Shown: one piece after another, positions 12,435-35,007 of the stretch | How positions within the stretch are numbered: the stretch's first letter is position 1 | How the letters are laid out: each line of letters starts with the position of its first letter | Assembly (NCBI RefSeq): GCF_001186125.1 | Contig: NW_014039935.1 | Span: 12,986 to 48,047, forward strand | Direction: 5' to 3' | DNA from: Sphaeroforma arctica JP610 | Taxonomy: Eukaryota | Length of the DNA stretch: 35,062 nt | Made by a program: the position numbers and the translations under genes | The notes under the pieces: model-generated | Database searches by the model: none | Told to the model about the DNA's origin: nothing | What the model saw: the letters and a program-made list of their open reading frames with translations, nothing else

Positions 12435-14002
12435 TATGGTATCGTGTAATTTCTTTTAATATAAAAAACATTTTGAAAAAAAAACTTTTCTATTGCACTT
12501 GCTCTATATTTAAATATTTATTTACATTTAGATATCATATTGTTTGTTTTTATAGCAGATACTCCCGGAAGGATTGTAACAGAGGTAAAACTCTGAGACT
12601 AATTATGGGATTTTTCCGATCTGAGGGTTCTTCACCACAACTCTAGATATGAAGGACTGATAGACATATACGCACAGGCGTATAGCCGCCAAAGTGTATA
12701 TATACGCGTAGCTATAATCATTCCTACACCAGAATTAGCCACAACCGTTAGCCTGATTCAATTTGTATTCACCAGTGCCTCTAAGAAAACCCACCCACTC
12801 ACACCATTACTTTAGATATACTAAATTCCCATCTCACTTAATTCCAATACGATATAACATCGACGGGCATCAGCGTCGCCGAACAGCCCTAGTGTTATGT
12901 CCGGCTGCGCCGTTCTGTCTGGCTCCGCTGATAGTGTCTCCGACACTCTCAGGTCTAACAGTTCAGCAAAGCCAACGGTCTAAGTTTTATTTCTAAATAA
13001 ATTCATATTTACTATTATGTTGTATGTTTTGAGATATAATTTATATTTGCCAAAAACTACTGTACTAACGGGGATAGGGCAACATCATACAGGACAAAAT
13101 TACTTCAATCAACTAATCATCGTTTCCTTTTTAAACTACTTCTTGCAGACTGTACTTTCAAGGTAATGAAGCACTACACTGACGGACTGGGAGTCTCGCG
13201 AGTCTGCTTATATGCTAGGGGACAAGGGATTAGCATCACGAAGCACCTGCAACATGCCAGCTTCATGTGTATATCCAACGGGGAGACATATGCATCTAGA
13301 AGGTATATTTATATATGGTATCAAAAATGTACGCCAATAGGGTAAGGAGATGCGTAAAACGCGCGTGTTGTTTCCCGGGACATTGCGTATGCAGAGCCTG
13401 GTCTTCGGGGCCAGCTGCACCTGGCTATTGATAGATCTGGTATTTAAAATACAAGACCTAATTAATCTACCAAATGCGGAAAACTTTATCAGATAAAGCA
13501 TACAGCAGGAAAACCTCAGTTTCAATAAATCAAACCCCGACCTGATATATATATATAATATAGTATAATATATATATAATGTCGGAAACATAATTAATTG
13601 ACACAGCACATCAGTAACGCAGTCTTTGCACCAAGCCATCAAGATTTTCCCACCACATTACGGCGTCTTTCTGTCTATTTCTTTCCAGAAGCAATGTAAT
13701 AAAATTTCAAATTTTGGGGATAGTGTTTATTTTCATGTGCACCATTTGATATTTGCATACTTTGAACTGTAGTTCATTTCTATAACTTGTATAAGGGGGA
13801 TATGCTACTAATATAAAGTTGAAGCATATCATATTGATTTCCTAATGGTGCATAGTATGGTGGAGCAATCTAACTAAATGTAATGGAATCTTCGGAATAA
13901 AGTTGGGGAGTTCCTGTCAAACCACTCACATATATATACGAGATACAACGGACGGTGCCTAAGGCCAACTCCCACCATATGTCTCAAACCTGCTTTCCAA
14001 TA

Positions 14003-15992
14003 TCAAACGTTGAATGCAGCCAGAAACTCCGCGGTGGAGTCGGTCTTGGGTCGCTCTGGTATGTGCAGTTGTCGGTGCGCCGCACTCTCTCCGAACGTCA
14101 GAGGGAAGCCCCAACCCCTCTCGACCAACAGCCTGTGCAAAGACAAACACTCCTCCAGTGCCATACCACCCTCTTCTGTAGAAGTACCAATACTATTAGC
14201 CGCCGCGGCTTTGCCCGATCCAGCAGCGGCTGATGACCCACCAGCCGCCTGTAAACTCGCGGTGGGGACAATAACGTTCTCGTTCGAGGTGTTGGTTACC
14301 ATGGCAATGAGATCCGCAACACTCGCCACCTTGGCCGGCACTTCGCCCATACTCAGCACCCGCACCTGTGCATTCGCGTCCCGGGCACCCCCCACAAACA
14401 CACTCAGTGCACGCCTGCACGAGGGTCGCTCAACCACCTTCAACTGGGTGGGCAAGTTCAGTGTCAGCGGAGGCTGAGACTGAGGAGGCTCTGCCTGTGT
14501 GTCAGGTTGAGGCTCGACTTGAGTGCCATTGGCTGCGTCAAGGGGCGCATGCGGCTGTGTGTCGGTTGGTGCGGTGAGTGGTTCGTGTGATGTTGCCAGA
14601 GTGTGGTCTGGGTCGTGTTCGAGTGGGGCGGTGAGTGGTTGGTGGAGTGATTCTACCGGCGCGTCCTGTGGCTGTGATTGAGTGTCTTCTACCGGCTTGT
14701 CCATTGTCTGTGCAGGTGGTTGCGAATGCTCCTGTGCCTGACCCACGAGTGGGCCCTCGCCCGCATCGGTCTGGTCTGTGCTACTGGTGTGGTTGTATTC
14801 ATGCGCACTGACATCCATGTGCGCTTCTTCCACATGGGGTTGGTCCACAGTACCACCGTTCGCGTTCTCCGAGTCCGCCTTGTTCACGTATATCTCGGGG
14901 CTCGTGGTGATGCCCGTGGGGTCTGTATCATTCGGGTGTGGCAGCGTGTGCGGGTACTGACCGACAGTCCCGCCCTCGCCCGACTCCATACCTCCCTCCA
15001 CAGTTACAGTAGGTGTGCCTTGCACATCTAAACCGTGAGGGTGTATCGCACTCTCCCCGCTACTGCCGTCTCCGTTCTGCAGCACCGCGAACGGCGCCAC
15101 CCCCACATCCAGGTGCCTCGTATCGAACGCCATCCCGGTTTCACCCGTCATCATTCCGTTGTCTCCCGCATGCATTTCACCTTCACCGGCCGTCATCCCG
15201 TTTTCCCCAATATCCATCCCGTTTTCCACGATATTCAGCGCATTGCCCCCCATGTTCACGTCGCTCTCGCCTGGGTGTATCCCGTTTTCAACGGGTGCAA
15301 CGGTTTCTGGGGCGGCTTCGGAGGCCGCAGGCATGGTATGCTCGTGCTGGGGGTCCTGCACATCTTCGTCCACCTTCTTACCCTCACTCGCACCCAACGC
15401 ATCGTCCGCAGACACGTGGTACTCCGCCTCGGCGCCCGGAGCTATGACCAGGTCTGTGCTATTTATAGACACTTCCGTATTAGGCACAGGACCCTCGGGC
15501 AGGGACAAGGACATGGGTTCCTCTATCGCCACAGTCACCTTCAAGGGCTCCGGCTTGGCAGGTACAGACGGTAGCCTATCAAGCACCACAAAGTCCAGTT
15601 GCTCACCCAACTTGCCCAGAAGCGATGCGAGCGCACTCTCCGCCTGTGACTGCGCCTCGGCCGCCGCAATACGTCCGTGGGCTGCCGCGTCTGAATCCGT
15701 ACCCATCCCGATATCCATACTCTGCTGCTGGTTTATCGCATCATCACCTGAGTCTGGCACGTATGCTGACGAGGGTGCGCCTACGGCATCGGCCGGCCCT
15801 ACACGGTCGTTCTCTTGTCCTGGACCTGGACCTTCTTTTGGGGCCTCCAGGTGCTCGAGGATATTGTATGGGATGAGTATGAGGCCTTGCTTACGCGTAT
15901 CTAAGCTCACAGATGCGAGCTCCTCAATGGTCGACGGAGTCTTCACTTCAAACCACGCCGGGAACGTTTGTTCTGCATACTCGGCCCATTCA
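14003..15992 (-). CDS. Gene 1 terminal exon 15 (rest of SNF2-like lobe with long acidic/Pro/Gln inserts)
   Basis: Contains the 647-aa ORF. Acceptor CACACAG|T (phase 2), TGA stop at 14005-14003. Confidence 0.9.
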
Positions 15993-18900
15993 CTGTGTGT
16001 GGAATAGTAGAGAGGATGGGGATTCAGGGGTTAGGGGTTATGCTTGCGTGGATGTGCGTATGAAATACAAGCAGAAGGTAACTGTACAGTTGAATGCACG
16101 ATAAGATCATCGGAAATGTACCACAGAATCCTCGCCAAAATGAGTACAAATATATGATATGCAAGTATGCACTAAACTATAATGACATGTGTATAAATGG
16201 AAGGTTCTATCTGAGGATACACATACATGCCACATCATCGACAAGCCTATACTCAACGACATTCCTTCAGATACACATATAACCTACCCAACCGTAGCAT
16301 CCGGACAGAACACCACCGACACAGACGCACGCGTCTGATGCATGGCCAACAGGGCTGTAAGCGGACTACACGCATCGCCATGCTGCACTTTGCTAGCGCC
16401 GCTCTCCACAGCCTTGTCGTCCGTGTTCTTATCCGCATTCACATCATTCGCATCTTGGGCGCGTATGTCCGCGCCTATCTCCCCGCTCACGTCTACGGGG
16501 TTGTCCTGGCTACCACCCGTCCCGCTTTCGGTCCCGGAATCCGTCTCAGAGCGCCACAGACAGAGTCCACCGGCATCCACCACCCGCTTCGATAGCTCAT
16601 CGGCGTACAGGCACTGCACAAGAGTGGGTAGCGTGTACACCTTCTCGTCCGTATCCTCCTCGTCCACACACATGTTAATAGACGGAAGGGTGTTGCCGTT
16701 CAGGGCGTCGCCTGTATCGGGGTCGTTGGGGTTGGCCTGTGCCTGTGCGTCTGGTTTGCCCTTGTCCGTGTCTTGTGGGCGTCTGGTGTGGTAGTTGTAC
16801 CGAGACGGTACATTGCTGCGCGAGTTGAGCGCCGCGCTATACTGCGCGTTGAACTCAAAGGTCAGCTGGTTGTTGTGTTGCTTCAGAGTACCGAACTGTT
16901 TGATGATGAGGTGCGCCAATCCGTTGGCGTCCTCGATCTCATCACCGGCGGTCTCATTGGTCGCCGGGTTCGCATCATCGGTGTTCCCTACAATCTGATT
17001 GGCGCTCACACTCACGTCCTCCATATCCATATTCAGGCTTAGATTACTGCTGTGTGCGGTATCCGCAGTTGCGTTTGGCACAAACGCACTCTGATCCGAC
17101 TCACCCACCGCAGCGTCATTGATATCGGTGTTCAAACTGATCTCGGAGGGTTCTGTAAGTCCGGCCAAGGTAGCTGGAGGCTTGGATGCGGGTTTCTTGA
17201 TCTTGGAGCCCGCCACCACCTAATCGGGGAGAAATGACAGGGGTTAACATGGCTAATATATATATATATAATACTCAAGTATAGAATAGAAGACATTCTA
17301 TATGTAATACACCAGATGAAGTATCGTATCATGGTTGTTCTATAACACAGCATGGCCAGCCTAGTGCATATCTATAGTATAGACACCTCAGAGCCATGGA
17401 GCACATATAATTCATAAGCAGACTGCTAAGAATCACGCACACACTCACGAAATATAAGACAAACCCCACACACCCCTTACAATAAACCACAAATACACAA
17501 TACTTAAACCAAATAAGTCATTACACACACGGACAAAAAGCACCGCCTATACCCGACACAGTACACACAGCGATAAACCACTAACACACACATACAACAT
17601 AAGCATACCATCAAACATCAGAAAGACACCTGCACATGCACAAATCATAAACCATTTAAACACACCAGTACATACACAAACCATACAACATTCAAACACA
17701 CCCGCACATACACAAAACCATCAAACATCACAACACACCTGTGCCCACAGGCGCTGCAGGCCACAGCGCACGAAGAAGTCCGCGTACCGCTTGTCAAACC
17801 AGGGCGTCGCAGTAGCGTTGTGATACATCTCCAGCGCCTTGATCACCTGTACGTCCCCATGGCACGTGCACGTGAGAGGGTGTGCATGGTTAGTCGCAGC
17901 AGAGAGTGCCGGCGAGTGAGCGTGTTTGGGTGCCAGTGGCTACGACTGAGTAGACCACTTGGGTTCACGTAGAATCGTGTATATACGATTGTAAGCACAG
18001 TATCAGTAGTTGAGACGGATGGTGTGTGTGTTTGGGTGCCAGTGCATTGCGTGAATTGAGACGGATGACGGGTATTTCCGATCTTCAGGTGTATGTGTAT
18101 GTGTGTATGAGCGCGTGGTTAGAAGTGTGGATGAAATTAACAAAGGGCGTATGATTCTCATGTGTATGCGACAGCCCACTTGCACGTGGTGGGTTGTAAC
18201 GAATTGGGCGATAGAGTATGACCCCTATCGAACAAGCCGAGCCAGGGCAGACCATAGTCCTGCAATGTCTGAGAGAGTGTGGGTAAAGGGTGTCTGGACT
18301 GAGGAAACACCTATCATAGGTACGGCAGAGTCTGAGTAAAGACGTCAGTATAGTAAGTGCGTGTAGGGTATATGAAACGTAGAGGGAAGCGAAGACCAAT
18401 GCTGCACTGACTCACAGACTTGGATTACAAAGCCGCAGTAGGACATAGAGGCAAACATACAAGCAATCACCCCAAGATGACCGGAAAGATTAACGTATAC
18501 TGGGCTGAAGCACCCCCACACAGAACGTAAATGATATAAATCTAGATTAAATTCTGCAAATCCAGACGTTTGTGAATGTATATACACTGGGGATTGCACA
18601 AACTACAACTTACCGCGTCGAAGATGTCCTTCTCCGCAGGCACCCCAAAGATCTCAAACGTGCCCACGCGTCCAACCAGAACGCGTTTATTTTTATCCAC
18701 ATCTCCGAGCTCCGTCACATCGCCAGCCGGTTCATTCGCACCCGCCCTGGCATTGGTCTCCACATCGCTTGCCTTGGGTGCTGCGCCTGCCTTCGCGGCC
18801 TTCTCCCTCTCAACTCGCTTCTCCTTTTCGGCACGCAGCACTTGCTCGATCACGGTGGGCGGGGGGTCCCAACCGACAAACACACGCAGCTCTTCATACG

Positions 18901-21900
18901 AGTATGTGCGAATGGTTTTGAGTAGGACCTGTAGGTAGATGAGATATGGATATTGGTAGGTAGGTAGCTGGTTAGAAGACTACATATCCTGTAAGCGCAT
19001 GAGCATGTATGTATATGCATGCGCGCACATCTATGCATAGGTGCAAATATGTCCACCGAAGTAGAATCAGAGTTCACGCCGATGCTGTGAAGATATTATT
19101 GATAGTTCACGACGTCCAACCACAGTCGACAGCGCTCCGTTTGTGACAGTCCTTTCCCACATCACCCCCAGACACAAACAGTAAACAAGTCACAGTCACA
19201 TACCACTACACGTGCGTAGCTACTGATATATGGCCCCTCCCACCAAGCTCGCCTCATTGAACGTACGAGAAACACTAAACAAGTCACAGTCACATATCAC
19301 TATGCGTGCGTAGCTACTGCTGTATGGTCCCTCACACCAAGCTCACCTCATTGAACGTACGAGAAACACTAAACAAGTCACAGTCACATATCACTACGCG
19401 TGCGTAGCTACTGATGTATGGCCCCTCCCACCAAGCTCACCTCGTTGAAACGTACGATAAACATTAAACAAGTCACAGTCACATATCACTACGCGTGCGT
19501 AGCTACTGATGTATGGCCCCTCCCACCAAGCTCACCTCGTTGAACGTACGATAAACATTAAACAAGTCACAGTCACATATCACTACGCGTGCGTAGCTAC
19601 TGATGTATGGCCCCTCCCACCAAGCTCACCTCGTTGAACGTACGNNNNNNNNNNNNNNNNNNNNACGTAGCTACTGATATATGGCCCCCCCCACCAAGCT
19701 CACCTCATTGAACGTACGGGAGCGTGGATGTGCAGCCGAGTACATATTAAACACGGTGTGCAGCTCCGTCAGTGAATAGTCATTCAGTAGCAACCCACTC
19801 GCACTCGCCGTGTCACGTGACCCCAACAGCGCCGCCACACAGCGACGTACACCGTCCATTCCATCGGCAACACGCGGGCGGACGGCCGCCCCCCGCAGCT
19901 GCCCATATGAGGCAGGCTGCGGATGCCCATATAAGGGAATCTGCGCGGGCAGCATGCCCGTGCCGACACTCGGCGCATCGGTTGGTCCGAGCTCGTCCAT
20001 GGTAGGTAGCATGGTGCTCCCGTCTCCGGGCAGCAGCTCCACCTGCGGCTTTGCCTTGAGCCCCAGGGCCTTACACTTGGTACAACCGCTGCGTTGCTTG
20101 CGCTCGGCAATGAACACGTGCGAGATGTCTGTGGTGCAGCCGAATAACACCTTGCGTTTGGCGGGGAGTGCCTTGAACTGATCGGCGTTGGCTATACGCA
20201 CCACGCCTGTGTGTACAGAGGAGGGTGTTATAGGAAGAGTGAGTGGGGTTTTATCAGGTGAGTGAGTGTGATGCAATAACAGAGAATGGGTCACGGGAAG
20301 AGTGAGTGTGGTTTAGTATCAGGTGAGTGAGTGTGGTTTAGTATCAGGTGAGTGAGTGTGGCGCAGTATCAGACAGTGTGTATCGGGAGCCATGTACTAT
20401 ACCAACACAAATGGCTATCCACCGCAACAGAGTGTGCCGGGAGTGCCCTAGAGTGCGTCTAACCGCAAGCCAAGCCAAGCCCTCCCTAAGCATACTCTAC
20501 ACCGCCAAAGCCACAGAAACCAAACACCCAGCCGTGTCACCGTGCACACACTCACCATTGGTACTCTCCATGATAAGCCTCTCCAGATTACGCACCACCT
20601 CGTCTCGGTGTAGGTTGGGTGGGGCGAACATGTCCTCGTCCGCGTTTCGGCCGGGCAGCAGGTACATGGGCTGCACAGTGCAGTTAGCGCAGCCATTGAC
20701 CCCACAGAAACGGCAGCCGCACGCCACGGTGCAGTACCCGGGTTGGATGACCTGGCGAGAGTGTGTGTAGGTAAGAGAGTGGGAGTGAGAGAGTGTGTGG
20801 GGAAGTGTGGACAGGACGTCCCGGCCCGTGAAGTTCGGAACATACACGGCAGATTGAACTGATTTGCACCATTCTTCTACGTATATACATGTGCATAATA
20901 TATATGGCCTTACAAACCCAAACCCAAGCACAGACGCACACATACCAGGCGTATTTGTGAGGTAGTATACATGTACATAATATATGGTCTTACAAACCCA
21001 AACCCAAGCACATACGCACCCACGCCCGCTCACACACATACCAGGCGTATTAGTGAGGTAGTATACATGTACATAATATATGGTCTTACAAACCCAAACC
21101 CACCCACACCCGCTCGCACACATACCAGATGTATCTGTGAGGTACTGCCACTGGTTATCATCAGCGGCTCGGCAGTGCCCAGGCCTTGGCTGGAGTTCTT
21201 GGAGCGTTGCTTGAGATCGGCGATTTCTCGGTTCATCGTACACTGGGTGCAGCCTTTCTTCTGCTTGCGCTCGGCTATGAAGAAGTGCTTGAGATCGGCC
21301 GTACACCCGTACACCACCTTGCGTTTCTCGGAGAGCTTCTCGAATTGCTCCACGGTGCGTATGCGCTTGCACTTCTCGCCGGCTGGAGAGGATAGGGGCG
21401 GTCGAGTGCGCCGAGATGGGGGTGAGTGTGGCAGGTAAGACACTTGGAGAGTCTCTTGAGGAGTACGGGGATTAAACTTTAGAAGGACGTGTGCGTAGAT
21501 AGGAGGGTTGACATATGGTTGGGTGTCTTGAACAGTTATGTGTATAGATGTTTCTCGGAAGTCACGAGACGTATACATGAATACGTACACACGGGTGTAA
21601 TGTCTTTTGCAAATAGACCGAGCTCTCCCACTTGGGCCATATTTAGGTATGTCTCATTATATGTGTCACTATACAAACCTTCACTGTGAGTGGCAGTGGT
21701 AGTGGTGATGATGTACGTGCGGTGGTATTCACATAGCTATTTATGGATCTCTTTCACACCACACACACCCATCTCTAGACTGTCCAGGTAGGCCACAGCG
21801 GCAGCCTTAGTGGTGACGTGCGCAGGGATAGTGGGCACATGGGACAGATTGCGCCCCGCCAGTTCAAACATGGGCTGCACAACGCACCTGGTATTGACAA

Positions 21901-24900
21901 AAGAAAGCCGAATCTATAAATAGAATGTCACAGGGCTTGATACTTGCGGCGGATATAAAGTACATTTTGAAGGGCCAAATATAGAGATACAATCGACTCC
22001 GCAAGGTTTAAATAAGGAAAACAAATGCCATGCCGGTTTGTCCCTACATATGCACACACCTTTATGCGTACAGACATATTATATGTACACCTATCATACA
22101 CACACACACATACCTCTTAAATCGTACAGACATATATATGAATACACCCTTTTCATATCAACACATGTACACACATACCTCTTTTAAATCGGACAGATAT
22201 ATATATATATATGAACACGCTCTTTTACATACCAACACATGCACACACAAACATCTTTCTCTTAAATCGTACAAACATATATACACACACACTCTTATAC
22301 ATACCAACAAATGCACACACACACACACACATCTCTGCGTGCAGACATGTATATGCACACCTATCACATTCGTCCTCACAGTGTCGGCAGGGTTTCTTGA
22401 CGCTGATGTAGTTGAGGTCGCGCGTGGGTTTGTGCTCCGAGGCCATTTGGTTGTTGTCCATATCGTTGTTGGGTGTGTCATTCAGATGTCTGCATTGGCG
22501 GCACCCCAGTTTCTGTTTACGTTCGGCGATGAACATGTGGTCCACATTGCGGATGCACCTGATGCATAATATTTTTGGGTGGTGGATCAGGACAAAATTC
22601 CGAGCTTGTCTTTTGTTTTGACTGTAATTCCTATGCCGACGAACAATGTGCACTGGATTAAGCGTGGCTAAACACACATACACACACTTATATATATATA
22701 GATAGATATAGATATGTACATATACTTTACTCACATGTATGCATCGAACAACATCGACATGTACAGTCAGATATATAGCAAGTCACACACACACACACAC
22801 TTACACACATACGCAGGTGTATACATAAGACAATACCCATGCACGCAGGTGTATATATACAAATCACCCACAGCCACCCACACGCACAGATGCGTGCAAT
22901 ACACGCACTCACCCATAGACCAGCTTGCGCTTGGCATAGAGCTGCTCGTAGTGACTCACGGAGCGTATGCGCACCACCCCGGGATGCTTCAGGCCCTCAA
23001 TATGGGACACAAAGTCCTTTCTGGTGCTGAGGGTGGGGGGTAGGAACTCGTCTGGGTCAACCAACCGGCCGGGGAGGTCATACATGGGCTGGATAGCACA
23101 GGATGCACACCCTTCATTGTTACACTTGCGACAGCCTTTCATCACTGCGGAGGTGAGTGGGTGTGGGTGAGGCATGGGCTGAGTGAGATAAACAGAGCCG
23201 AGAGGGTAGAGTATGCACACCCTTCATTGCTACACTTGCGACAGCCTTTCANNNNNNNNNNNNNNNNNNNNNNNNNNNNNNNNNNNNNNNNNNNNNNNNN
23301 NNNNNNNNNNNNNNNNNNNNNNNNNNNNNNNNNNNNNNNNNNNNNNNNNNNNNNNNNNNNNNNNNNNNNNNNNNNNNNNNNNNNNNNNNNNNNNNNNNNN
23401 NNNNNNNNNNNNNNNNNNNNNNNNNNNNNNNNNNNNNNNNNNNNNNNNNNNNNNNNNNNNNNNNNNNNNNNNNNNNNNNNNNNNNNNNNNNNNNNNNNNN
23501 NNNNNNNNNNNNNNNNNNNNNNNNNNNNNNNNNNNNNNNNNNNNNNNNNNNNNNNNNNTCATCACTGCGGAGGTGAGTGGGTGTGGGTGAGGCATGGGCT
23601 GAGTGAGATAAACAGGGCCGAGAGAGTAATAAAGCATGCACACTCCTCATTGGTATACCTACGACAGTCTTTCCTCACTGCGTAAGTACACACCCCTACA
23701 AGACGCCCTACCTGTGACAAAATCGGCAAGACCATGGCCCTTGGCACCCGTCGCAGTAGGGCCCAGGGCGTTGGTGCTGGACCCGGAATTCACTATTCCC
23801 ATGGTAGACCCGGGTAGTGGTGCGGTGAGTCGATCGCCTGTTTGGTACGCGGACGGGTTTGTACTGGGAGAGGGTACTCCGGGTAAGGATGCCGAGTACG
23901 TATTGGTATAGTTGAGCTGAGTCCTGTAGGGATCTGGTACGAGGACGAGGAAAGGAATAGGAGTGTAAGGGATGATTTATATATATTATTCGTTGGGAGG
24001 GGGGGGGGGGGAAACAAACAAACAAACGCATTTATAAGGGTATACATGTAACGTAACAGTTTATTGCTTGTCATAGCAGGGGCGAGTTGATCGCTGGGAA
24101 AGGACACGGACAGGGGATTACGTAAAGTACGTATTCATATACGGACTTATTCAATCATACAGAGTTTGCTGACATCTGGGAAATACCTTGAACGTAAAAA
24201 CATGCGAACGCATCTGTGGTTTGTCATCTCCCATATCTGTTGCTAACTCGGATTGATTCGTCTGCAAGGACACCGTGGTGTGCAAACCTTTACGATGCTG
24301 TATGACTTGCAGCATGTGAGCTCATACACACACACACATATATATATACCCATACATACCCATACACACACACATATATACATCCCTTGACGCTAGCATC
24401 TGTAGCATTCCCATACCTGCTGCCTGGTCGTACTGATTGGCATACAAGGACACCATGGTGTTCGGGCTGGGTGTGGCATTGGCGTTGGGTGGCATGGTCA
24501 GGCTCACTTGCGACGGCACGGCAGTCAAGGGGAACTCTTTGGGGTCACCGGTCCTTTCTAGCAGACATTGAGGACAGCCCTTTTTCTGCTTCTTCTCGGC
24601 CACGAAGAAGTGGGGGATGGTGTTGAGACACATGTACAGTAACTTCTTCTTATCTACGAAGGTGGAAGAGAGAAGCGGGTGGTTAGGGTGTGGTATGTTT
24701 ATGCCACACGTGAATTGATACAGCTCTACAATTGCGTTGATGAAGATCGACTCCATCTGGCCCTCTCCCCTATTCTCTCGACGCATACAACTCACACATA
24801 GAGACCACGTACACATATGTGTATAGTTTATGTATACAAAGCAGACAAATATAAAAAAATCAATATAATATAATATAATATAATATATATACATGTACAT

Positions 24901-26208
24901 TTCCTCTTGCAGATATTTCACCACCACACATCACAGCAACGCTACACATACCTGGCAATGTTTCGAACTGGTGCGGGTGGGTGACGTGCATAATGTGGTC
25001 GTCGTGTAGATCGCGCAGATGCGTTAGCAGTTCCCTGGGTAGAACAGAGTGCGTGGGTAGGTAGTATTCTATTAATAGATCTTCGAGCGGTTCTACAGTA
25101 GGTAACAAAGGTACGATCACATACACTCAGAGACGAGAAGGTACCACGCCTCAAAACTGAACAGTAAACCGCACGTCCTTACAGGATTCTCAAGCGTCTA
25201 TAGCTCATCCAAACGGCAACATAAAAGAACCGCCCCCCCCCAAAGGGAAAACCCAAGAACCCAAAGTATGTGGAATGGCAAAGGCCGGGGGTGTACCAAC
25301 CTCAAGCCCATGGTCGGTGAAGGGCAGAACTGTGAGATGTCGATCTGTCGTCCGGGCAGCACAAACATGGGCTTCACACAGCACACCACACAGCCCACTA
25401 TGCCCGTGCAGTACTTGCAGTCCTTCTTGACGGCTATGAAGCTCATGGGCGCGTCCCAGTCCTGTGAAAGGGGACAGGTAACGGGGACAAAAGGACCGGG
25501 TGTTTTGTGACAGGACAATATGGGGTACGGTATAACAACCGCTTGTTTGACCGATATAGAGATCATGGGTGGACCTTATAGGGAAGGGAATACTAAGGGC
25601 AAAATGAGGACATTTTGGTACCCCCGCCCAAAAAAAATCCTTGTGGTGTTTATAACCTTTTTTTTAACGGTCAAAAAGCACACGAGTGCTTTCTAACACC
25701 CAATCGTAATATTCCAAATAGGAGTTACCCATATGGTACGTTTGAAATGAGTGCCAGTGCATGCATGTGACTCAAAACGTAGCACACCACACAGCCCACT
25801 CCCCCGGTGCAGCACTTGTAGTCGTTTCAGGATGATACAGAGCGCCAAAAAGTATCCCACAGCCCCCAATTTTGATAAATTTGGCCGAGTTTTCGGAAAC
25901 GAGAAAAGAAATTGCTACAGGCACGCATACCAGCAACCACTTATACACAACACCTATAAACAATTTCATTTACATTCCACAGGTAACTACATATAAACAA
26001 TATCAATAGCAAATGAAACCGCTACCTATGCACCTAAACGCAGCCATATATACTCAATACATAAATGTAAACACGTGTACATAATATATAATACTCCAGT
26101 CGAGCCACTCAGAGACAGGGGTCATACGGGTGTGGCAGCTTTGTACGTCTTCTTGCGCTTGGAGACCATTTCGGTGACGCCGTAGCCGTCTGCCGGGCGT
26201 TTCTCCAT
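14003..26208 (-). CDS. 15-exon gene, 1877-aa protein: 4 tandem Cys/His (putative zinc-binding) modules + unknown middle domain + degenerate SNF2-like ATPase N-lobe
   Basis: Hand-spliced exons: 26208-26128, 25461-25301, 25034-24952, 24653-24417, 23933-23712, 23144-22913, 22558-22361, 21887-21769, 21382-21126, 20751-20556, 20206-19704, 18928-18614, 17846-17739, 17219-16288, 15992-14003. All introns are GT-AG with matching phases. Total 5634 nt = 1878 codons from ATG to TGA. Splicing restores the internal protein repeats across junctions. The product call is by eye from motifs. Confidence 0.85.
16288..17219 (-). CDS. Gene 1 exon 14 (acidic low complexity + start of SNF2-like lobe)
   Basis: Matches the 311-aa ORF. 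Acceptor CGATTAG|GTG, donor GG|GTAGGT (phase 2). Confidence 0.88.
17739..17846 (-). CDS. Gene 1 exon 13 (VIKALEMYHNATATPWFDKRYADFFVRCGLQRLWAQ), absent from the ORF track
   Basis: GC-rich island within a CA-rich intron. Acceptor GTACAG|GTG, donor CAG|GTGTGT; 108 nt, phase 0/0. Confidence 0.8.
18614..18928 (-). CDS. Gene 1 exon 12 (VLLKTIRTYSYEEL...KDIFDA)
   Basis: Acceptor CCTACAG|GTC, donor GCG|GTAAGT; 315 nt, phase 0/0. Confidence 0.85.
19182..19718. repeat. 94-bp tandem array (at least 5.5 units, contains a gap) overlapping the exon 11 donor
   Basis: TAAACAAGTCACAGTCACA at 19182, 19276, 19370, 19465 and 19559. Confidence 0.95.
19704..20206 (-). CDS. Gene 1 exon 11 (module 4 C-half + start of middle domain)
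   Basis: Acceptor CACACAG|GC, donor GAG|GTGAGC. Confidence 0.85.
20252..20371. repeat. Short intronic repeat (GTATCAGGTGAGTGAGTGTG, ~25-bp period)
   Basis: Three to four imperfect copies in intron 10. Confidence 0.75.
20556..20751 (-). CDS. Gene 1 exon 10 (module 4 N-half CRFC..CANC, QPMYLLPGR)
   Basis: Acceptor CTCGCCAG|GTC, donor ATG|GTGAGT. Confidence 0.85.
20880..21144. repeat. 84-96-bp tandem array (x3) overlapping the exon 9 donor
   Basis: Repeated ATAATATATGGyCTTACAAACCCAAACCCA...CACATACCAG. Confidence 0.9.
21126..21382 (-). CDS. Gene 1 exon 9 (module 3 C-half KRKVVYGC..HFFIAERKQKKGCTQC)
   Basis: Acceptor CTCTCCAG|CC, donor CTG|GTATGT. Confidence 0.85.
21769..21887 (-). CDS. Gene 1 exon 8 (module 3: CVVQPMFELAGR...), absent from the ORF track
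   Basis: Acceptor ATACCAG|G, donor ATGG|GTGTGT. Phases 2/1 fit both neighbours. Confidence 0.85.
22361..22558 (-). CDS. Gene 1 exon 7 (module 2 end, module 3 start)
   Basis: Acceptor GCATCAG|G, donor AG|GTGTGC. Encodes HMFIAERKQKLGCRQC and KKPCRHCEDECDR. Confidence 0.85.
22913..23144 (-). CDS. Gene 1 exon 6 (module 2: CRKC..CASC, QPMYDLPGR)
   Basis: Acceptor CTCCGCAG|TG, donor GG|GTGAGT. Confidence 0.85.
23103..23683. repeat. 110-bp tandem array overlapping the exon 6 acceptor (largely within an assembly gap)
   Basis: ATGCACACCCTTCATTG at 23103 and 23213; CATCACTGCGGAGGTGAGTGG at 23140 and 23560; diverged copy at 23636-23683. Confidence 0.88.
23712..23933 (-). CDS. Gene 1 exon 5 (S/T/G/P-rich linker)
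   Basis: Acceptor GTACCAG|AT, donor ACAG|GTAGGG. Open in the required frame; phases 1/1. Confidence 0.75.
24417..24653 (-). CDS. Gene 1 exon 4 (module 1 C-half KKKLLYMC..H..KQKKGCPQC + linker)
   Basis: Acceptor CTTCGTAG|AT, donor GCAG|GTATGG. Confidence 0.85.
24952..25034 (-). CDS. Gene 1 exon 3 (module 1 middle)
   Basis: Acceptor CTACCCAG|G (phase 2), donor CCAG|GTATGT (phase 1). Confidence 0.8.
25301..25461 (-). CDS. Gene 1 exon 2 (module 1 N-half: CKYC..CVVC, KPMFVLPGR)
   Basis: Acceptor CTTTCACAG|GAC, donor AG|GTTGGT. Confidence 0.85.
26128..26208 (-). CDS. Gene 1 exon 1 (MEKRPADGYGVTEMVSKRKKTYKAATP; basic NLS-like KRKK)
   Basis: ATG at 26208, donor CCC|GTATGA, phase 0 matches exon 2. 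The start codon is not independently confirmed. Confidence 0.65.
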
Positions 26209-29200
26209 GATCGCAGTATTAGATGTTACCTACCCGTGTTTGTCGGGGTGCCCTAGAGAATAAAGAATAGTGATTCGTAGTTGGAGAGTTATAATTGTAT
26301 CGGAAGCTGAAAACCCCTTTTATGATGATATCCATCAATATAGCATAGTTTATCAGTATTCATTGAATAATTCTTAAAGATAATATATATATATATATAT
26401 ATATATATCAAACCCCATACTACCGTAAGAGATACACTAATATAGCAAGTGGCAGTAATACGGCTAAATAGACATGGCGAGTAAGATATATACGCCACGT
26501 CCAGGGGAAGCAATAGCACATGTTCGACAGGACATATGCGAGCAATATATATACAGGTGTACATACATCTTAGCATATAACCAGATTTACCTACACTGAG
26601 ATATTCGGAGGTGTGCAGATTGTACATTTGTATCGTAACGGACAATTCTTTTCATGTAAATGTGTGTCACACTCACTATATATACATACATGCATTGTGT
26701 ATACACCAAGTCGATGCGAATAATATGAATTCCCACCGATTGCTTGTATTAGCGACTACCAATGCGCATCTGACACAACTTTCTGGGGGGTTCAGGGTTA
26801 CAAAAGAGAGCGACTTTGTTCAACCGCTGCATTGACGACGTGACAAAGACAATGAGTGGTCATAAACCACACAGTCCTTATCCTTATACGTACCATTCAG
26901 CACCCCATTCGCATGTGAATGTACACAGATTGTGTGTGCTTCAGTTGTCTAATGTAGTTACTAACTCTAAATCCGACATATACAACAGGAGAGTGGTCTT
27001 ACTATATTTGGATGTGACCCTATTCGCATACTTATTCAATTAAATGCGTGTATATACAGTTGCAGTTCTCGCAATAAGAGCGTACAGTGTTGGCCCGAAC
27101 GTAACAGTACACCATCCCACAGAACCTCGCAATGCGCCATGTCTTATAAATAGGTGTACACACGCAAACCCCACCCCAAAACCCCACATCCCAACTAAAT
27201 GAGGCGCTAGTGTCAAACTTAAGCCCTTTTCTCGCGTAATGGGTGAATGTACCGGCCATAGACAGGTGCTATAGTAGGACCATATTCTATGTAACAAGGT
27301 GGATACTCCATCTTAAATGAATTATATAAACAGAGACACAGCTGTAGTTATATATACCGCTGTACACGTTACCAGAGCTTACTATGGAAGAGCCATACCT
27401 CACATAACAAGACAAATGATTCACTGGAACGTAACTGATACTAAAGTAGAATAGTCGCCTGAGTGTTAAAAAGTTTTCCCACAATACGAAAGAGACTGAG
27501 CATGTTACGAGACGACGACGCATGTAGTGTGCAGTGAGTTGTCCACGCCCTGTCTTATTCACACAACACACACATATGCCAAGAGGAGTGTAGCACGGAT
27601 GTAGTGTTCAGCGGATGCATCACGTGCTCCTTCATTTTAAATCACATGTACGCCTCACTATTGCACGTTTCGCACGAGAATGAGAATGCCACGGGATGTC
27701 CAACACGCATGTAGCGTGCATCCGATATAACACGCAGTCCTTCATTTATGTATACATACGCACGGCTGTCAAGAGGTAAGCCATAGACTTAATATGTCTT
27801 TCATACACACACACACACACATACGCGTAGCCGTACCTTTATCGGTACAAGACCTCTGGATGGAGTGTGGTGTACAGTCCCAGAAAAGCCTAATCCCCCT
27901 GACACGGTCAAGCAAGTATATAGTATACACTTGGAGGCGAGTAACCTCACTGTTGTGTTTAAATATGCCCCACTTCACAGGGTTTACTGGATACTAGTAA
28001 GCTATACTCAATGACCATGTATCCTGGGGGGGGGGGGGGGGTTGTATGTGCACCTTGTTATGCCGCTATAGTCCTATAGACCCGATCGGTTGTGTTTGCA
28101 GTCCTCTAGAGAGACCTATACCCGTTTTATGTAAAATGTAAGTGCAACAGATACCCAGAACCTTTTTGTGCGAGTGCGTCTTTCTGTTATAAAGTTATGC
28201 CTCTATTTCCTACACAGCTGGATATGGGGCGTTTGGAGCTGGGAGCAATAAAGAATTTGTGTTTTATTCTCATGCTGTTGTTTTTATACCCCTTTTCCTA
28301 TATAAACTTGTTGGGGTTTCAGACATATTCGAAATTTTCCGTCGGAAACTCTAAATTTTATTCAATTTGCATCAGTTTTTATTATCAGACTTCCCTCCAG
28401 AAAATATTTTCGCCACTTTTTATTTCCAACGGTCGCTGCCTCTGATATGAGGTTTGGGGTTTGAAACAAACATTTTAGGACATATTTGTCACTTTGCCAT
28501 AGGTCCCCAAAACCCAAGTGACAGTGCCAAAATTTAAAAAAATTGCAAAACCCCTGAATGTCGGTGTATTGAACTATTGGATTATTTATATTCACTTTTC
28601 CGATCCATTGTGTGATTTCGACGTGCCTTCAGAGTCTAGTCAGAGGTTTTAATGCAGAAGCCGAACTGAGAGTATTCTAAAGGCCGTCATCACAAAAGCA
28701 ATGACACTGCACAATATTAAACGTCGTAATTTCTCGGGCGAATATGATTGATCGAGAGAAGGAGATGTGTCATACGGGTGAGACGACTTATGTGTATTGG
28801 GATCGACAAATGAGATCGCCACAGATTGTGAGATAAACATGAAATATTTAGCTAATATATGTATTCATTTATACAATTTACTAAGTGTATACATATATGT
28901 TGCACTTGTATGCATGTATAATATAAATACATATTTAAAACTTGCTTGTGGTACATATGAGTATGACTACGACTATAAGTCTATAACTACAGACTCTATA
29001 CATATGCATGAGCAGCTAGTAGTATACATCAGGTAGCAAACAGATGAAGTGTCCCTCCGATCACTATCCATCCAGTACTAAATAGACCACTCGACTAGAC
29101 ATAGTCAGGGGGAGGTCAACTCTCTGTATCTACATAAAAATCTGAAAATATAAACATAAATGAGACACGCACTTCTTGAATAAGGTATGCCATCTTTGTG

Positions 29201-29689
29201 GTAGTGATTTCCCTCACGCATGCACTATCACTTTGCAGCCTTTTGAAATGAAGCTCTTCGATTCGTGTATCGAGTTTACTACCATTTATTAAATGGCCGC
29301 AGCATATGTACTGGTGCATTGCATCGTGCATCTATTTTAGGACTGTTTGATCACCGGCAGACTCCGTTTTGAGCTCATACATATAGATAAGTCATGTGAA
29401 GTTTAGTGGCCAGTTCACCGTTTAACATTAAAATGGGTATATACATATCTGAACGTATTAGTATAGTTACGTGTATCTGTACGCACTCGTTATCACATAG
29501 CCATTACGTTGAAGGATTCAAGTCAGCCACATATATTTAAATCCATAAGTTGTGCTACGTTTTTGAATATGCATACTGTATTACACGTTAATCTGTATTC
29601 AAAATCGGAATGAATACATAGAAATATATCTATACATGATTTTTGATATAGAAATATTTGCATAGAAATACGCATATACTTATGCACGT

Positions 29690-29815
29690 CTACACACACA
29701 TGCACACACGCAAACACACACACGCACACACACACTCTCTCTATATATCACGCACACACACACACACGCTCTCTCTATATTACACACACACACACAATCA
29801 CACACGCACATGTAC

Positions 29816-29846
<31 letters not shown>

Positions 29847-29847
29847 T

Positions 29848-29898
<51 letters not shown>

Positions 29899-29992
29899 CG
29901 TATTTATNNNNNNNNNNNNNNNNNNNNTATATATTTATATATACTTACATACATATACATATACATACATGCATTCAAACATACAAACATAA

Positions 29993-30065
<73 letters not shown>
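29690..30065. repeat. Compound (CA)n/(TA)n microsatellite with a gap
   Basis: Directly visible. Confidence 0.95.
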
Positions 30066-30316
30066 CTGCACATGTGAGTATGTATCTGTTTGTACGTATA
30101 CATGTGTCGACGTTTACCGTAATTTATACATATCTGTATATCTATACAAGCTAACCTATATGCATGTATGTAAGTACATCTATATATGTACATTTATATA
30201 GACTTTCCTATTTGGACAATCGAAAGTTACACACACAACCATCATTTTGTATAACCACTGTCATGGTACTGATCTTCACCCTTTCCAAATTGTTACAGTA
30301 GCCAGAGTTCTTCAAA

Positions 30317-32008
30317 ATGTCGAACTCGCAACCGGATTTAACGAAGACGAGTGCCCTCTCACCTGTCGGTGCTCTGGGCAAACCAGGCAAGCGTGGACAC
30401 AGGTTGGCAGCTGTAGTTGGTTTATATGTGTATTAAGATATACATTTGTTTATACATAAACCCTTACTGTTTGTGTCATCGATTAATATGTCTTTGTATG
30501 CATGCATGTCTAAGTATATGTGCATTAAGATATACATTTGTTCATATATAAACACTTACTGTGTGTGCCATCTATTGTTGTGTCTATGTATGTATACATG
30601 CGTGACCAAATATATGTGTATTAAAATATACATTTGTTTAAACATATACAATCACTCTTTGTACCGTCTACGGTCATGTGTGTGTATGCATGTCTATCCA
30701 GGTAGACGTGTAGGTCTATGCATTTGTGTGCATATGCAATGAATCTCTGTTTTTTTTTTTGCTTGAAACAGAGTATACGTAATATTATAATTGATGTTGT
30801 GATACAGTTCATAATTCTGTATGGCATTGCCCGTGTATTCTCATCGGAGTTTCAGGGTCACATTTGTAGAAACAACAGAAACGAATCGAATTTTATGTAA
30901 ATAGAAACAGTAGGAAATCGATCTATGTGCATATAAACAGTAGGAAATTGATCCATATGTACATATAAACAGTAAGAAACTTATTTATATGTACATAGAA
31001 GCAGAAGTAAACTGATTTATATCTATAGGCAATTTAAGTTGTTTGGCCCTGCCTATAATTCCTATTCAAGCGCACTTATCCATGCATCCAAGGTAGTGAT
31101 ATCAGTGCAATATGCATAGCAGGATTCAATTGTGGTTGTATATACACCTGGTATAGTGTTATAAACATACGCTTGTCCATGCAGTATACATAGAAGCAGT
31201 CATGCGCATTTATATACACAGCCGAAATCACACGGTGGTTTTAGGGGTTTAGGGTTTTCTAGCTTAGAGAACCCTATTGAGGTAGGGTTTTCTAAGTAAT
31301 TGGCAACTGACGGAACAGTCACGAGGGTTTGCCCGAAGTTCGGCACAATTGATTGGTGTGAAAGACTGTCATCATGTCCGCTAACTCAGTTATAGGCGTA
31401 GACTACAGTGACAAATACAGCATATACATAGTTACACACTTATCAATTCAGTCACGAACAGGCATTACAGAGATATGCACAGTAGGTATGTACATATACA
31501 TATATATACATATACATAAACATAAAAATATATATACATAGCACATATATATATACATATGCATATACGTATACATATTCATGCTCCATGTCAACTTAGA
31601 ATACAATCACGTGTCTATCGCATGCTTAGCTGCGCCTATTCTACTGTTCGTGTTATACGCGAGAGGGTTCGACCGGAGATCGGCTGCATCCATTCGTTCA
31701 GAAGACCATCACCGCACCTGTCAATCCACTTCGTAGGCACAAATAGCAGCGGCAAGCGCAAAACAGGTGGGCGTTATGTCAGGCCATACCAAAACCCTAA
31801 ACACTAAACCCTAAAACCCGGAAAGAGCGCATTGCCTTGCATAAATACACACACACACACATACACACACACACACACACACACNNNNNNNNNNNNNNNN
31901 NNNNNNNNNNNNNNNNNNNNNNNNNNNNNNNNNNNNNNNNNNNNNNNNNNNNNNNNNNNNNNNNNNNNNNNNNNNNNNNNNNNNNNNNNNNNNNNNNNNN
32001 NNNNNNNN

Positions 32009-32107
<99 letters not shown>

Positions 32108-35007
32108 CGGCACCTCTTGCCATGTGTTCAGTTGATTTACACGTGTTACCGTGTGCTTATGCACATCTGTTCAATACTTTGGCTTTGCAGGCGAGAGGGT
32201 TCGACTGGGGATCGCTTGCACTCGTTCTTCCAAAAGACTGTCACGACACCCGTCAACTCACTCATAGGCACAAACAGCAGCGACAGGCGGAACAGTATGA
32301 AAGCCTCGACAAGCGATGAGCGGACACGCAGTGATTGGGGTCCAGGAGTGTATGTATACGTAGTCTGTTAATATATCTATATAATTGAAATAGAGTGTAT
32401 GTATGTGTAAATAGTATGTGTATATATCTATATACCAAAATGGAATGTATGTGTATACAGCACGTGGATGTATCTCTATACTCATAATGGAGTGTATATG
32501 TATATGTGCATGTATGTTGATATATCAAAACCCTGTATACAAAATATAGGGTGTATGTGTGTATGGATCTTTATCAAATCTGTATATTTAAAAATGGAGT
32601 GGAATGGCTGCACCTGACGTGCATTGAGATTCATGTACGTGTAAATGTACATACGAAATGGCTAGTGGACGTGCATTAAGATTCATGTATGTGTAAATGT
32701 ACATACGAAACGGTTAGTGGAACGGATTCTGTAACAACACACTTCACCACATAATATTGGTAATTATATATGTGTATCTGTATCGAAGAAATAGTTATAA
32801 ACAGCACAACATTGGTAATCATGTACGTGTATCTGTGTAGAAGAAATAGCTATAAACAGCAACCTTTTCTGTACACTCACACTTAGCCACCTAAAATTGA
32901 AGAGATGCACTTTCGTATATTCAGAGACTTTCTGGTTTGAGTTAATTGGCGTCTCTGCCTATGTGAACCTTCCCTGTATCCCTTTTGCAAATATTCACAC
33001 TTAAGATCAAAATGGGTCCTGTCGTACCAAAATAACCGGACAAGTAACCCCGTTCGCTGGAAAATGAGGACTTGGAGTACGACCTAACCCAATTTTTTGC
33101 CTTATTTTTGTCACAGAACGGCGTATGGGGCCGACTACACCGACTACCGCAGGAAGCTCATGAACATTAAGAATGTATGCTGCACCCATCCATGTGTCCA
33201 ATGTTCTATTTTAGGTGCAATACATTACGGTTCGGGTTCAGAATGTTAGTGAACCCTAAAATCGGGCCACTATTTCATATTGTCCACTCGGTTAAGGGCC
33301 ACTTTCAGGCCGATACTGTTTAAGATCGCGCCGCATTCGATCCTTTGTCTAGTTGTATTCCGATTCAAGGCCTGATCATATCTATAGCACGATTGTCTAA
33401 TACTTTCAGCTCGTTTATATTCCACTTTCAAACTATTGCTTTCAACTCGTTTATATTCCACTTTCAAACTATTGCTTTCAACTCGTTTATATTCCACTTT
33501 CAGGCCAAAGGAGAACTAGAATAATACTAAACTATTGCTTTCAGTTCGTTGATATTCCACTTTCAGGCCAAAGGAGAGCTAGAATAGTACTAGACTATAG
33601 CATTCAGCTCGATTATGTTCCACTTTCAGGCCAAAGGAGAGCTAGAATAGAACTAGACTATTGCTTTCAGTTCGTTGATATTCCACTTTCAGGCCAAAGG
33701 AGAGCTAGAATAGTACTAGACTATAACATTCAGCTCGTTTATATTCCACTTTCAGGCCAAAGGAGAGCTAGAATAGTACTAGACTATAGCTTTCAGCTCG
33801 TTTATGTTCCACTTTCAGGCCAAAGGAGAGCTAGAATAGTACTAGACTATTGCTTTCAACTCGTTTATATTCCACTTTCAGGCCAAAGGAGAGCTAAAAA
33901 AGTACTAGACTATTGCTTTCACCTCGTTTATATTCCACTTTCAGGCCAAAGGAGAGCTACAGCAAGACATGGTGGTAGATCTGGAGCAGCTGATGCTGCA
34001 ACAAGAAGAAGTCGATGACAAGCATGTGCGTGACGTTGCAATGAGTCATGTTTTTACAAAGCTTTACTTGGTTTGAGTATATTCGTTCTCCTTTTAAAAC
34101 GCAAATGTTCTGTTGTATTGGGGCTGTTTTGCACAGCACCAGGTGCTGCATTGTATGAATATATTAGGGCTGTATTGCATGAACATAGCAGGGTTATATA
34201 TCAAAGTTGTATATTGTATGAATGTATTATGGTTATGTATCAGGGTTATATATTGTATGAGAATATTGGGGTTTTATATCAGGGTTGTATATTGTATGAG
34301 AATATTGGGGTTGTATATCAGGGTTGTATATTGTAAGAGAATATTGGGGTTATATATCAGGGTTGTATAATGTATGAATGTATTAGGGTTATGTATTAGG
34401 GTTATATATCATTAGGGTTATATATCAGGGTTATATATTGTATGAGAATATTAGGTTTGTATATCAAGTTGTATATTGTATGAATGTATTAGGGTTATGT
34501 ATCAGGGTTGTATATTGTATGAATATAGCAAGGTGGTATGGCACGAGGTCTGTTTCTACAGCATGTAATTCACTATATCACACGCAGCAGTATCCGCATT
34601 GACAGTTAACACGGAGAGAAAAGATATGTCACCCATCTATACCTAGCTAGGACCATTATAGATAAGCTAACCAAACTACTATATGCAGGCGACATTCACT
34701 CATTTGAAGATAAAGCATTGGGTTTTAGGGTTTAGCAGAAAGGGTTTTAGGGTTTTAGGGTTTTAGTTGTGTATGCGGAATGAGACAAGGTCAGTTGTCT
34801 AGTCCACGCAATCAATGGGGTGTGGCAGACCATTGAGACCTCAGAAGCAAACAATTACACACGCGGGTATGCAGACTTAAACAAGCACATCATGTACGTT
34901 CACGAGGATAAGGGGATCATGAAGGAGAAGAAGGTACCACACAATATGGTTTGTGATGATTTAGCCTGGTTGTCATATAGGAAGATAAGAAGATCGAGTT
35001 GCGCTGT
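30317..35007 (+). CDS. Partial multi-exon gene 2, unknown product, possible PH-like domain, truncated by the window end
   Basis: Candidate exons: 30317-30402 (MSNSQPDL...GKRGHR), 32191-32347 (REGSTGDRL...WGPG), 33945-34025 (AKGELQQDMVVDLEQ...DDKH), ~34803-34933 (HAINGVWQ...KEKK), 34981-35007 (EDKKIELRC). The first three join in phase. The junction into the 34.8-kb exon is unresolved, so an exon may be missing. Confidence 0.6.
30870..31020. repeat. Degenerate ~30-32-bp minisatellite (AAACAGTAGGAAAT...)
   Basis: AAACAGTArGAAA at ~30905, 30935 and 30968. Confidence 0.7.
31659..31762 (+). pseudogene. Degenerate duplicate of gene 2 exon 32191-32292
   Basis: Reads REGSTGDRLHPFVQKTITAPVNPL, then a +1 frameshift, then VGTNSSGKRK. 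The acceptor CAG is replaced by TAC. The upstream intron sequence is also homologous. Confidence 0.85.
31847..32107. repeat. (CA)n(TA)n microsatellite with a gap
   Basis: Directly visible. Confidence 0.95.
33397..33959. repeat. 63-bp tandem array (8 acceptor-bearing units, preceded by 36-bp subunits) overlapping a gene 2 acceptor
   Basis: TTCCACTTTCAG ends at 33503, 33566, 33629, 33692, 33755, 33818, 33881 and 33944. Confidence 0.95.
34150..34528. repeat. 39-bp intronic minisatellite (~9 units)
   Basis: GAATATTGGG at 34261, 34300 and 34339; consensus close to GGGTTrTATATCAGGGTTGTATATTGTATGAGAATATT. Confidence 0.9.
34718..34766 (+). repeat. Short telomere-like (TTTTAGGG/TTTAGGG) tract
   Basis: GGTTTTAGGGTTTAG...AGGGTTTTAGGGTTTTAGGGTTTTAG. 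Confidence 0.7.

What the first reader, a model, noticed from the sequence alone, without database searches (positions are those of the whole stretch)
14003..26208. Whole architecture: NLS + 4 zinc modules + unknown domain + pseudo-SNF2, a candidate new chromatin or nucleic-acid regulator
Seen: an uninterrupted 1877-codon spliced frame with canonical splice sites, so the gene looks maintained even though the ATPase motifs are lost. I know no characterised protein with this domain combination. Inference: a targeting subunit that binds DNA or chromatin through the zinc array and recruits partners through the dead lobe. A separately encoded lobe-2-only protein could be one such partner.
Basis: inference. 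Interest (0 to 1): 0.8.

Follow-up and report, generated by a model that had tools for sequence, protein, structure and literature searches.

The report
Zinc-array protein with dead SNF2 half-motor
This is a real, spliced gene of Sphaeroforma, a single-celled relative of animals, shared so far only with Creolimax; it joins four copies of a likely new zinc-binding module to what is likely a broken half of a chromatin-remodelling motor, and probably works as an energy-independent DNA-targeting scaffold.

The parts
14003..26208 (-). Whole gene SARC_07680, 15 exons: 26128-26208, 25301-25461, 24952-25034, 24417-24653, 23712-23933, 22913-23144, 22361-22558, 21769-21887, 21126-21382, 20556-20751, 19704-20206, 18614-18928, 17739-17846, 16288-17219, 14003-15992; 1877 aa
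   Evidence: introns 11-14 by run contigs
26128..26163 (-). Basic N-terminal motif aa 16-27 containing KRKK (candidate monopartite NLS)
   Evidence: 11 of 12 identical in Creolimax; pattern scan; function inferred
24565..25419 (-). Cys/His module 1, aa 42-138 (exons 2-4)
22492..23133 (-). Cys/His module 2, aa 266-361 (exons 6-7)
21240..22389 (-). Cys/His module 3, aa 396-492 (exons 7-9)
20073..20715 (-). Cys/His module 4, aa 543-640 (exons 10-11)
17739..19859 (-). Conserved, predicted all-helical region of unknown family, aa 712-904 (exons 11-13)
   Evidence: 37-44% identity to Creolimax in two blocks; helices in low-confidence model; no family hit
14093..16637 (-). Degenerate SF2/SNF2 RecA-like lobe 1, aa 1099-1848, split by acidic insertions
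16527..16571 (-). Motif I remnant, aa 1121-1135: strand kept, Walker A GKT absent, followed by a 60-aa acidic insertion
15941..16325 (-). Motif Ia strand and helix with conserved Trp, aa 1203-1232 (spans intron 14)
15860..15886 (-). Motif Ib remnant, aa 1251-1259
15575..15598 (-). Motif II remnant, aa 1347-1354: DR in S. arctica, DE kept in Creolimax
14423..15571 (-). 383-aa acidic low-complexity insertion after motif II (17 aa in Creolimax), aa 1356-1738
14339..14362 (-). Motif III remnant, aa 1759-1766
13739..14002 (-). 3' untranslated region (approximate end from contig length)

Best explanation
The gene encodes one 1877-residue protein in which four repeated, likely two-zinc modules and a predicted helical domain precede what is likely an SNF2 motor's first lobe that has lost its ATP-binding motif, and it probably acts in the nucleus as an ATP-independent scaffold that targets DNA. 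Shown: one spliced transcript, the conserved order of parts, invariant Cys/His, loss of GKT, absence of lobe 2. Inferred, step by step: (1) the KRKK motif imports it into the nucleus; (2) each module binds two zinc ions, one by CxxC-x(2-7)-CxxC and one by C-x5-H...CxxC; (3) the basic modules, with invariant K-x-K, KQ and GR residues, read double-stranded DNA as a four-unit array with a fixed role for each unit; (4) the dead lobe is kept as a folded docking platform, together with the helical domain, for other chromatin or transcription proteins; (5) the acidic insertions are tolerated linkers, not core parts.
Confidence: 0.45

Rival explanations
1. Same anatomy, but the array binds RNA or proteins, and the dead lobe comes from another SF2 family (DEAD-box, XPB, ResIII-like); the protein would be an RNP or signalling scaffold, not a chromatin factor.
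For: The top three ESM clusters are ResIII/DEAD-labelled. 6 of 16 Foldseek hits at E<=1e-3 are non-SNF2 SF2 proteins. Motif II fits the ResIII set better. The module has no fold assignment.
Against: Summed block score at the five sites is 44.3 for SNF2 against 21.4 for the ResIII set. Top 20 VIA rows are SNF2, and only SNF2 rows cover the helices after motif III. The KRKK motif is conserved.
Confidence: 0.22
2. The dead lobe is the active part: it acts as a decoy or allosteric regulator of a working remodeller, docking on an SNF2 lobe 2 (in trans or in a lobe-2-only protein) or on nucleosomal DNA, as the Brr2 pseudo-cassette modulates its active cassette.
For: Lobe core blocks are 40-57% identical between the two genera, so the fold is under selection. 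Precedent for a pseudo-helicase that modulates an active one: Brr2 (10.1101/758698, abstract).
Against: Acidic insertions of 60 and 383 aa lie at the P-loop and just after motif II in S. arctica, the face that would meet lobe 2 and DNA (geometry recalled). Walker A and B are lost on this lobe, so no ATPase could be rebuilt. No lobe 2 in the window.
Confidence: 0.17
3. A domesticated gene of a giant virus or other mobile element (zinc-ribbon repeats plus SF2 helicase) that later gained introns and now serves in genome defence or regulation.
For: 5 of the 8 ESM rows shown are mostly viral clusters of 206-308 aa with lobe-1 families (the tool warns this is no sign of transfer). The second half of the module weakly resembles DUF4379: hhalign score 20.8 against shuffle maximum 16.75 of 100, probability 18%. 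The family is narrow. Giant-virus endogenisation is reported in an animal relative (10.1101/2024.01.08.574619, search listing only).
Against: 14 canonical introns and one-to-one colinearity across two genera. No confirmed relative in viral contigs (0 of 345 pattern matches), metagenomes (0 of 264 and 0 of 64) or phages; the pattern scans used only N-terminal words. The module profile picked none of the DUF4379 repeats in 4 genomes that hold them.
Confidence: 0.12
4. Two adjacent genes fused by annotation, or a decaying pseudogene.
For: Two assembly gaps and tandem repeats lie inside introns 5 and 11. Large low-complexity insertions.
Against: Contigs join exon 11 to exons 12-15 in 4 of 4 runs, and a 6134-nt contig fits the full model. 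The Creolimax orthologue is colinear. Indels keep the frame.
Confidence: 0.02

Closest known systems
SNF2-family remodellers (ISWI, SRCAP/SWR1, INO80, ALC1, CSB, Rad54, Rad5)
   Same: Lobe-1 fold and order of motifs I, Ia, Ib, II, III plus the following helices; accessory domains N-terminal of the motor.
   Different: No Walker A GKT in either species, no Walker B Glu in S. arctica, no lobe 2 or Helicase_C. SNF2_N and Helicase-C are described as co-occurring in most remodellers (10.1101/2021.11.30.470311, passages). 9-14% identity in the VIA alignments.
Brr2 C-terminal cassette (SF2 pseudo-enzyme)
   Same: A catalytically dead SF2 unit kept for regulation (10.1101/758698, abstract).
   Different: Brr2 keeps a full cassette next to an active one in the same chain; here there is one lobe, no active unit, and a zinc array.
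DUF4379 / PF14311 zinc-ribbon repeats
   Same: Tandem repeats ending in aromatic-x-C...H-x-aromatic...CxxC; weak profile match over 30 columns.
   Different: DUF4379 is a 56-position model; this module is about 97 aa with an extra N-terminal CxxC-CxxC pair and PM/LY/FxLxGR motif. No Pfam hit; profile search of DUF4379-bearing genomes negative.
Yeast Eaf1 (recalled, no call)
   Same: A remodeller-related protein serving as a scaffold without ATPase activity.
   Different: Eaf1 lacks the ATPase domain altogether and uses HSA/SANT domains; no sequence link was tested.

Membership tests
SF2 helicase-like, RecA lobe 1 | RecA-like alpha/beta fold with motifs I, Ia, Ib, II, III in order | tested here: met
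SNF2 family ATPases | Walker A GKT (motif I) | tested here: not met
   G, K invariant in 23 of 23 bacterial SNF2 lobes; absent at the aligned site in both proteins
SNF2 family ATPases | Walker B DExH (motif II) | tested here: not met
   S. arctica DRL, Creolimax DEI; His absent in both
SNF2 family ATPases | Lobe 2 (Helicase_C, motifs IV-VI) in the same chain | tested here: not met
   Only 29 and 5 residues follow the last lobe-1 helix; own lobe-2 HMM best iE 0.61 in the proteins and 6 in the window; transcript ends near 13739
SNF2 family ATPases | SNF2-type motif Ia helix and helices after motif III, as opposed to other SF2 families | tested here: inconclusive
   Leans SNF2: block sum 44.3 against 21.4; 29 of 44 SNF2 rows and 0 of 6 others cover the last helices. 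But Brr2 is within 1 Z, and hhalign/HMMER give no signal
SNF2 family ATPases | Pfam PF00176 / PF00271 hit | tested here: not met
   No hit at E<=10 for P0001 or P0002
SNF2 family ATPases | DNA-stimulated ATPase and translocation | not testable with these tools
   Needs purified protein; predicted absent
DUF4379 (PF14311) zinc ribbon | Profile match to the repeat | tested here: inconclusive
   hhalign probability 18%, E 0.0014, above all 100 shuffles; no Pfam hit; negative in 4 genomes
Known zinc-finger folds (treble clef, zinc ribbon, CXXC, PHD, RING) | Structural match | tested here: inconclusive
   Only the second half of a module (60 aa) was folded, pLDDT 53.7; Foldseek best E 3.6; the wide VIA search did not run
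Binuclear zinc module | Eight conserved ligands per unit | tested here: met
   7 Cys + 1 His invariant in 8 of 8 copies; metal binding itself untested
Classical monopartite NLS | K-K/R-x-K/R motif that directs import | tested here: inconclusive
   Motif present and conserved; consensus recalled; two further matches in P0001; import untested

The most novel reading that the evidence does not exclude
A new class of sequence-specific DNA reader: an undescribed ~97-residue two-zinc module in a fixed four-unit array, fused to a single-lobe SNF2 pseudo-enzyme that recruits or tunes chromatin machinery. It would be a transcription or chromatin regulator invented within one ichthyosporean lineage by repurposing half a remodeller motor.
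Probability: 0.3. Interest if true: 0.8.

Novelty: new variant of a known kind. Interest (0 to 1): 0.57.

Why it matters
Remodellers nearly always carry both motor lobes. A protein that kept one dead lobe under selection in two genera shows that lobe 1 has a use apart from ATP hydrolysis. The repeated Cys/His module has no family, so it is a candidate new nucleic-acid-binding fold. Both host species are laboratory models for the origin of animal development (PMC6855841, PMC4739763; search listings), so the idea can be tested. Interest is limited by the narrow range (two genera so far) and the lack of any functional data.

Tried and rejected
No family hit: Pfam on 15 exons, P0001, P0002; NCBIfam; PHROGs gave one weak DnaB-like match around motif II of P0002, E 7e-4, 65 aa, read as generic P-loop-fold similarity. 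PDB sequence searches with single proteins and profiles: nothing below E 0.5. ESM Atlas on module 2: no usable hit. No shorter relatives of aa 30-905 among 7991 candidates. hhalign of the 2-sequence lobe against 23 SNF2 and 24 ResIII-type sequences was at shuffle level; 6 or 7 loci per set were left out as near-duplicates or weak matches. The BFVD fold search was dominated by long, high-rmsd matches of a poor model and was not used, apart from noting helicases among them. Fold of the module's second half: pLDDT 53.7, no match. The wide structural search never ran. The complex predictor was not available, so packing of the helical domain on the lobe is untested. No genome is held, so paralogues and lobe-2-only proteins were not searched beyond the window; no fifth module copy in the window. 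Run search listed no holder on record as RNA; the four runs are judged RNA because their contigs skip the introns. The 80 RapA loci were too alike and served only to obtain genome handles. Literature: a search for six identifier terms of the two proteins found 0 papers; two searches for an inactive or single-lobe SNF2 found 0. Supplements of PMC4739763 (3 files) and PMC6855841 (12 files, 3 cut when stored, other gene ids) did not hold the ids; expression timing and gene age may be in parts not seen. PMC6755096 passages gave nothing on lobe-1 contacts. Earlier scan findings: none.

Full report
1. The observation. Using only coordinates, I enumerated GT-AG chains within 9 bases of approximate exon limits. 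The best-scoring of 216 open chains has 15 exons on the minus strand, 26208 to 14003, and gives 1877 aa plus stop. A database search with exon 14 returned one protein, SARC_07680 of Sphaeroforma arctica JP610, 'hypothetical protein'. It is identical to my model and alone in its 90% cluster. Coding GC is 0.58 against 0.45 in introns. The two N gaps fall in introns 5 and 11.

2. One transcript. I laid four runs from three studies on 13900-19150. Their RNA status is a guess by the tool, but their contigs skip introns. Introns 12 and 13 are skipped exactly in 4 of 4 runs, intron 14 in 3 of 4 and with a one-letter offset in the fourth. In 4 of 4 runs the contig continues past exon 12 into the end of exon 11; the 30-mer from X3 and X8 occurs once in the window, at 19706. 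This is the junction that links the zinc half to the lobe half. The 6134-nt contig of X3 has 2523 nt upstream of that point, where the model needs 2287.

3. Selection. Two related organisms (X10, X11) differ at about 1-4% of coding sites. The 9 coding indel events shown are all multiples of 3, counting adjacent rows of 4 and 11 as one; the two UTR indels are 1 and 2 nt; 5 rows were not shown. Only 40 of 160 substitution rows were shown, all at the 3' end. The 38 coding ones give 16 synonymous and 22 non-synonymous changes, pN/pS 0.45-0.57, P 0.014-0.066 against neutrality. This is modest, and most of that region is the acidic insert.

4. The only relative. A whole-length search found Creolimax fragrantissima CFRG6542T1, 1287 aa, E 7e-235. 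phmmer of aa 29-913 against 1.84 billion representatives found only these two proteins. I could not check which other ichthyosporean proteomes the library holds. The alignment is colinear from the first residues to the last helix. Identity is 62-67% in the modules, 37-44% in the middle domain, 40-57% in the lobe core blocks and 20-36% in most linkers. The extra 590 residues in S. arctica are mostly acidic insertions in loops.

5. The module. Each unit is about 97 aa: CxxC-x(2-7)-CxxC, a PM/LY/FxLxGR motif, a predicted helix, strand and helix, then K-x-K, C-x5-H-x-F, KQ and GCxxC. Seven Cys and one His are invariant in 8 of 8 copies, enough for two zinc ions (inference). 22 of 113 columns are invariant, K+R exceeds D+E in all 8, and each copy groups with its orthologue at support 0.96-1.0, so the four-unit array predates the two genera. 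Pfam, NCBIfam, PHROGs, PDB and the ESM Atlas give no family. The second half weakly resembles DUF4379 (score 20.8, shuffle maximum 16.75 of 100, probability 18%), but the module profile picked none of those repeats in 4 genomes that carry them. A model of the second half had pLDDT 53.7 and no fold match. The module is unclassified, not proven new in fold.

7. It is dead as a motor. Walker A G and K and Walker B D and E are invariant in 23 of 23 reference lobes. Both proteins lack GKT. Creolimax keeps DE, S. arctica has DR. Neither has lobe 2: 29 and 5 residues follow the last helix, and a lobe-2 profile finds nothing in the proteins or the window. SF2 motors need both lobes closed to hydrolyse ATP (PMC3781322, passages). 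In S. arctica, acidic insertions of 60, 70 and 383 aa follow motifs I, Ib and II, and the core has net charge -0.036 per residue (Creolimax 0.0; references 0.000 to +0.061). This argues that the ATP site and probably the DNA face are no longer used, while the fold is kept.

8. Mechanism. The most likely reading (0.45) is a nuclear, ATP-independent targeting scaffold. The basic zinc array would read DNA; the helical domain and dead lobe would dock partners. The anatomy is shown; every functional step is inferred. Rivals: an RNA- or protein-binding scaffold from another SF2 family (0.22), a decoy or allosteric regulator of a working remodeller (0.17; precedent Brr2, 10.1101/758698, abstract), a domesticated viral or mobile gene (0.12), and an annotation fusion or pseudogene (0.02).

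9. Comparison and novelty. It fails membership of the SNF2 ATPases on three defining features and does not work like a remodeller, though it likely descends from one. A survey of eukaryotic chromatin describes SNF2_N and Helicase-C as co-occurring in most remodellers (10.1101/2021.11.30.470311, passages). Searches for the protein identifiers and for inactive or single-lobe SNF2 proteins found no paper in the held library, which lacks most subscription journals; supplements searched did not hold the ids, and three files were cut. I file it as a new variant of a known kind, an SF2 pseudo-enzyme with an unclassified zinc array, interest 0.57.

Noticed in passing
window 19176-19703 (intron 11): Five 94-bp tandem copies; four near-copies of the end of exon 11 lie in this intron, next to a 20-N gap. 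These are potential cryptic donors; the contigs use the first one.
   Followed up: partly
window 23145-23711 (intron 5): Duplicated pieces of the exon 6 start and its upstream intron flank at 82-98% identity, on both sides of a 307-N gap. The true copy number is unresolved.
   Followed up: partly
window 20880-21130 (intron 9): Near-repeats that begin with the exon 9 donor region, seen by eye; a third intron where a splice-boundary segment looks tandemly duplicated.
   Followed up: no
window 25750-25830 (intron 1): A short stretch resembling the start of exon 2 (the first Cys pairs of module 1) in another frame, seen by eye; possibly a decayed duplicate.
   Followed up: no
window 26128-26208: Conservation around KRKK extends beyond what an import signal needs (11 of 12 identical, and the first five residues too), although Creolimax has a 29-aa insertion just before it; may be a binding motif.
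   Followed up: no
window 29100-33200: Several minus-strand frames of 71-74 aa between long microsatellite tracts look like exons of another gene; no Pfam hit at E<=0.05 for the four tested.
   Followed up: partly
window 3990-4211: 74-aa minus-strand frame with a weak TRIM coiled-coil match, E 0.0023, below the family cut-off; the first 13 kb is otherwise AT-rich with no Pfam family found in the frames tested.
   Followed up: partly
window 33403-34527: Long minisatellite arrays with 36-, 63- and 39-bp units.
   Followed up: no
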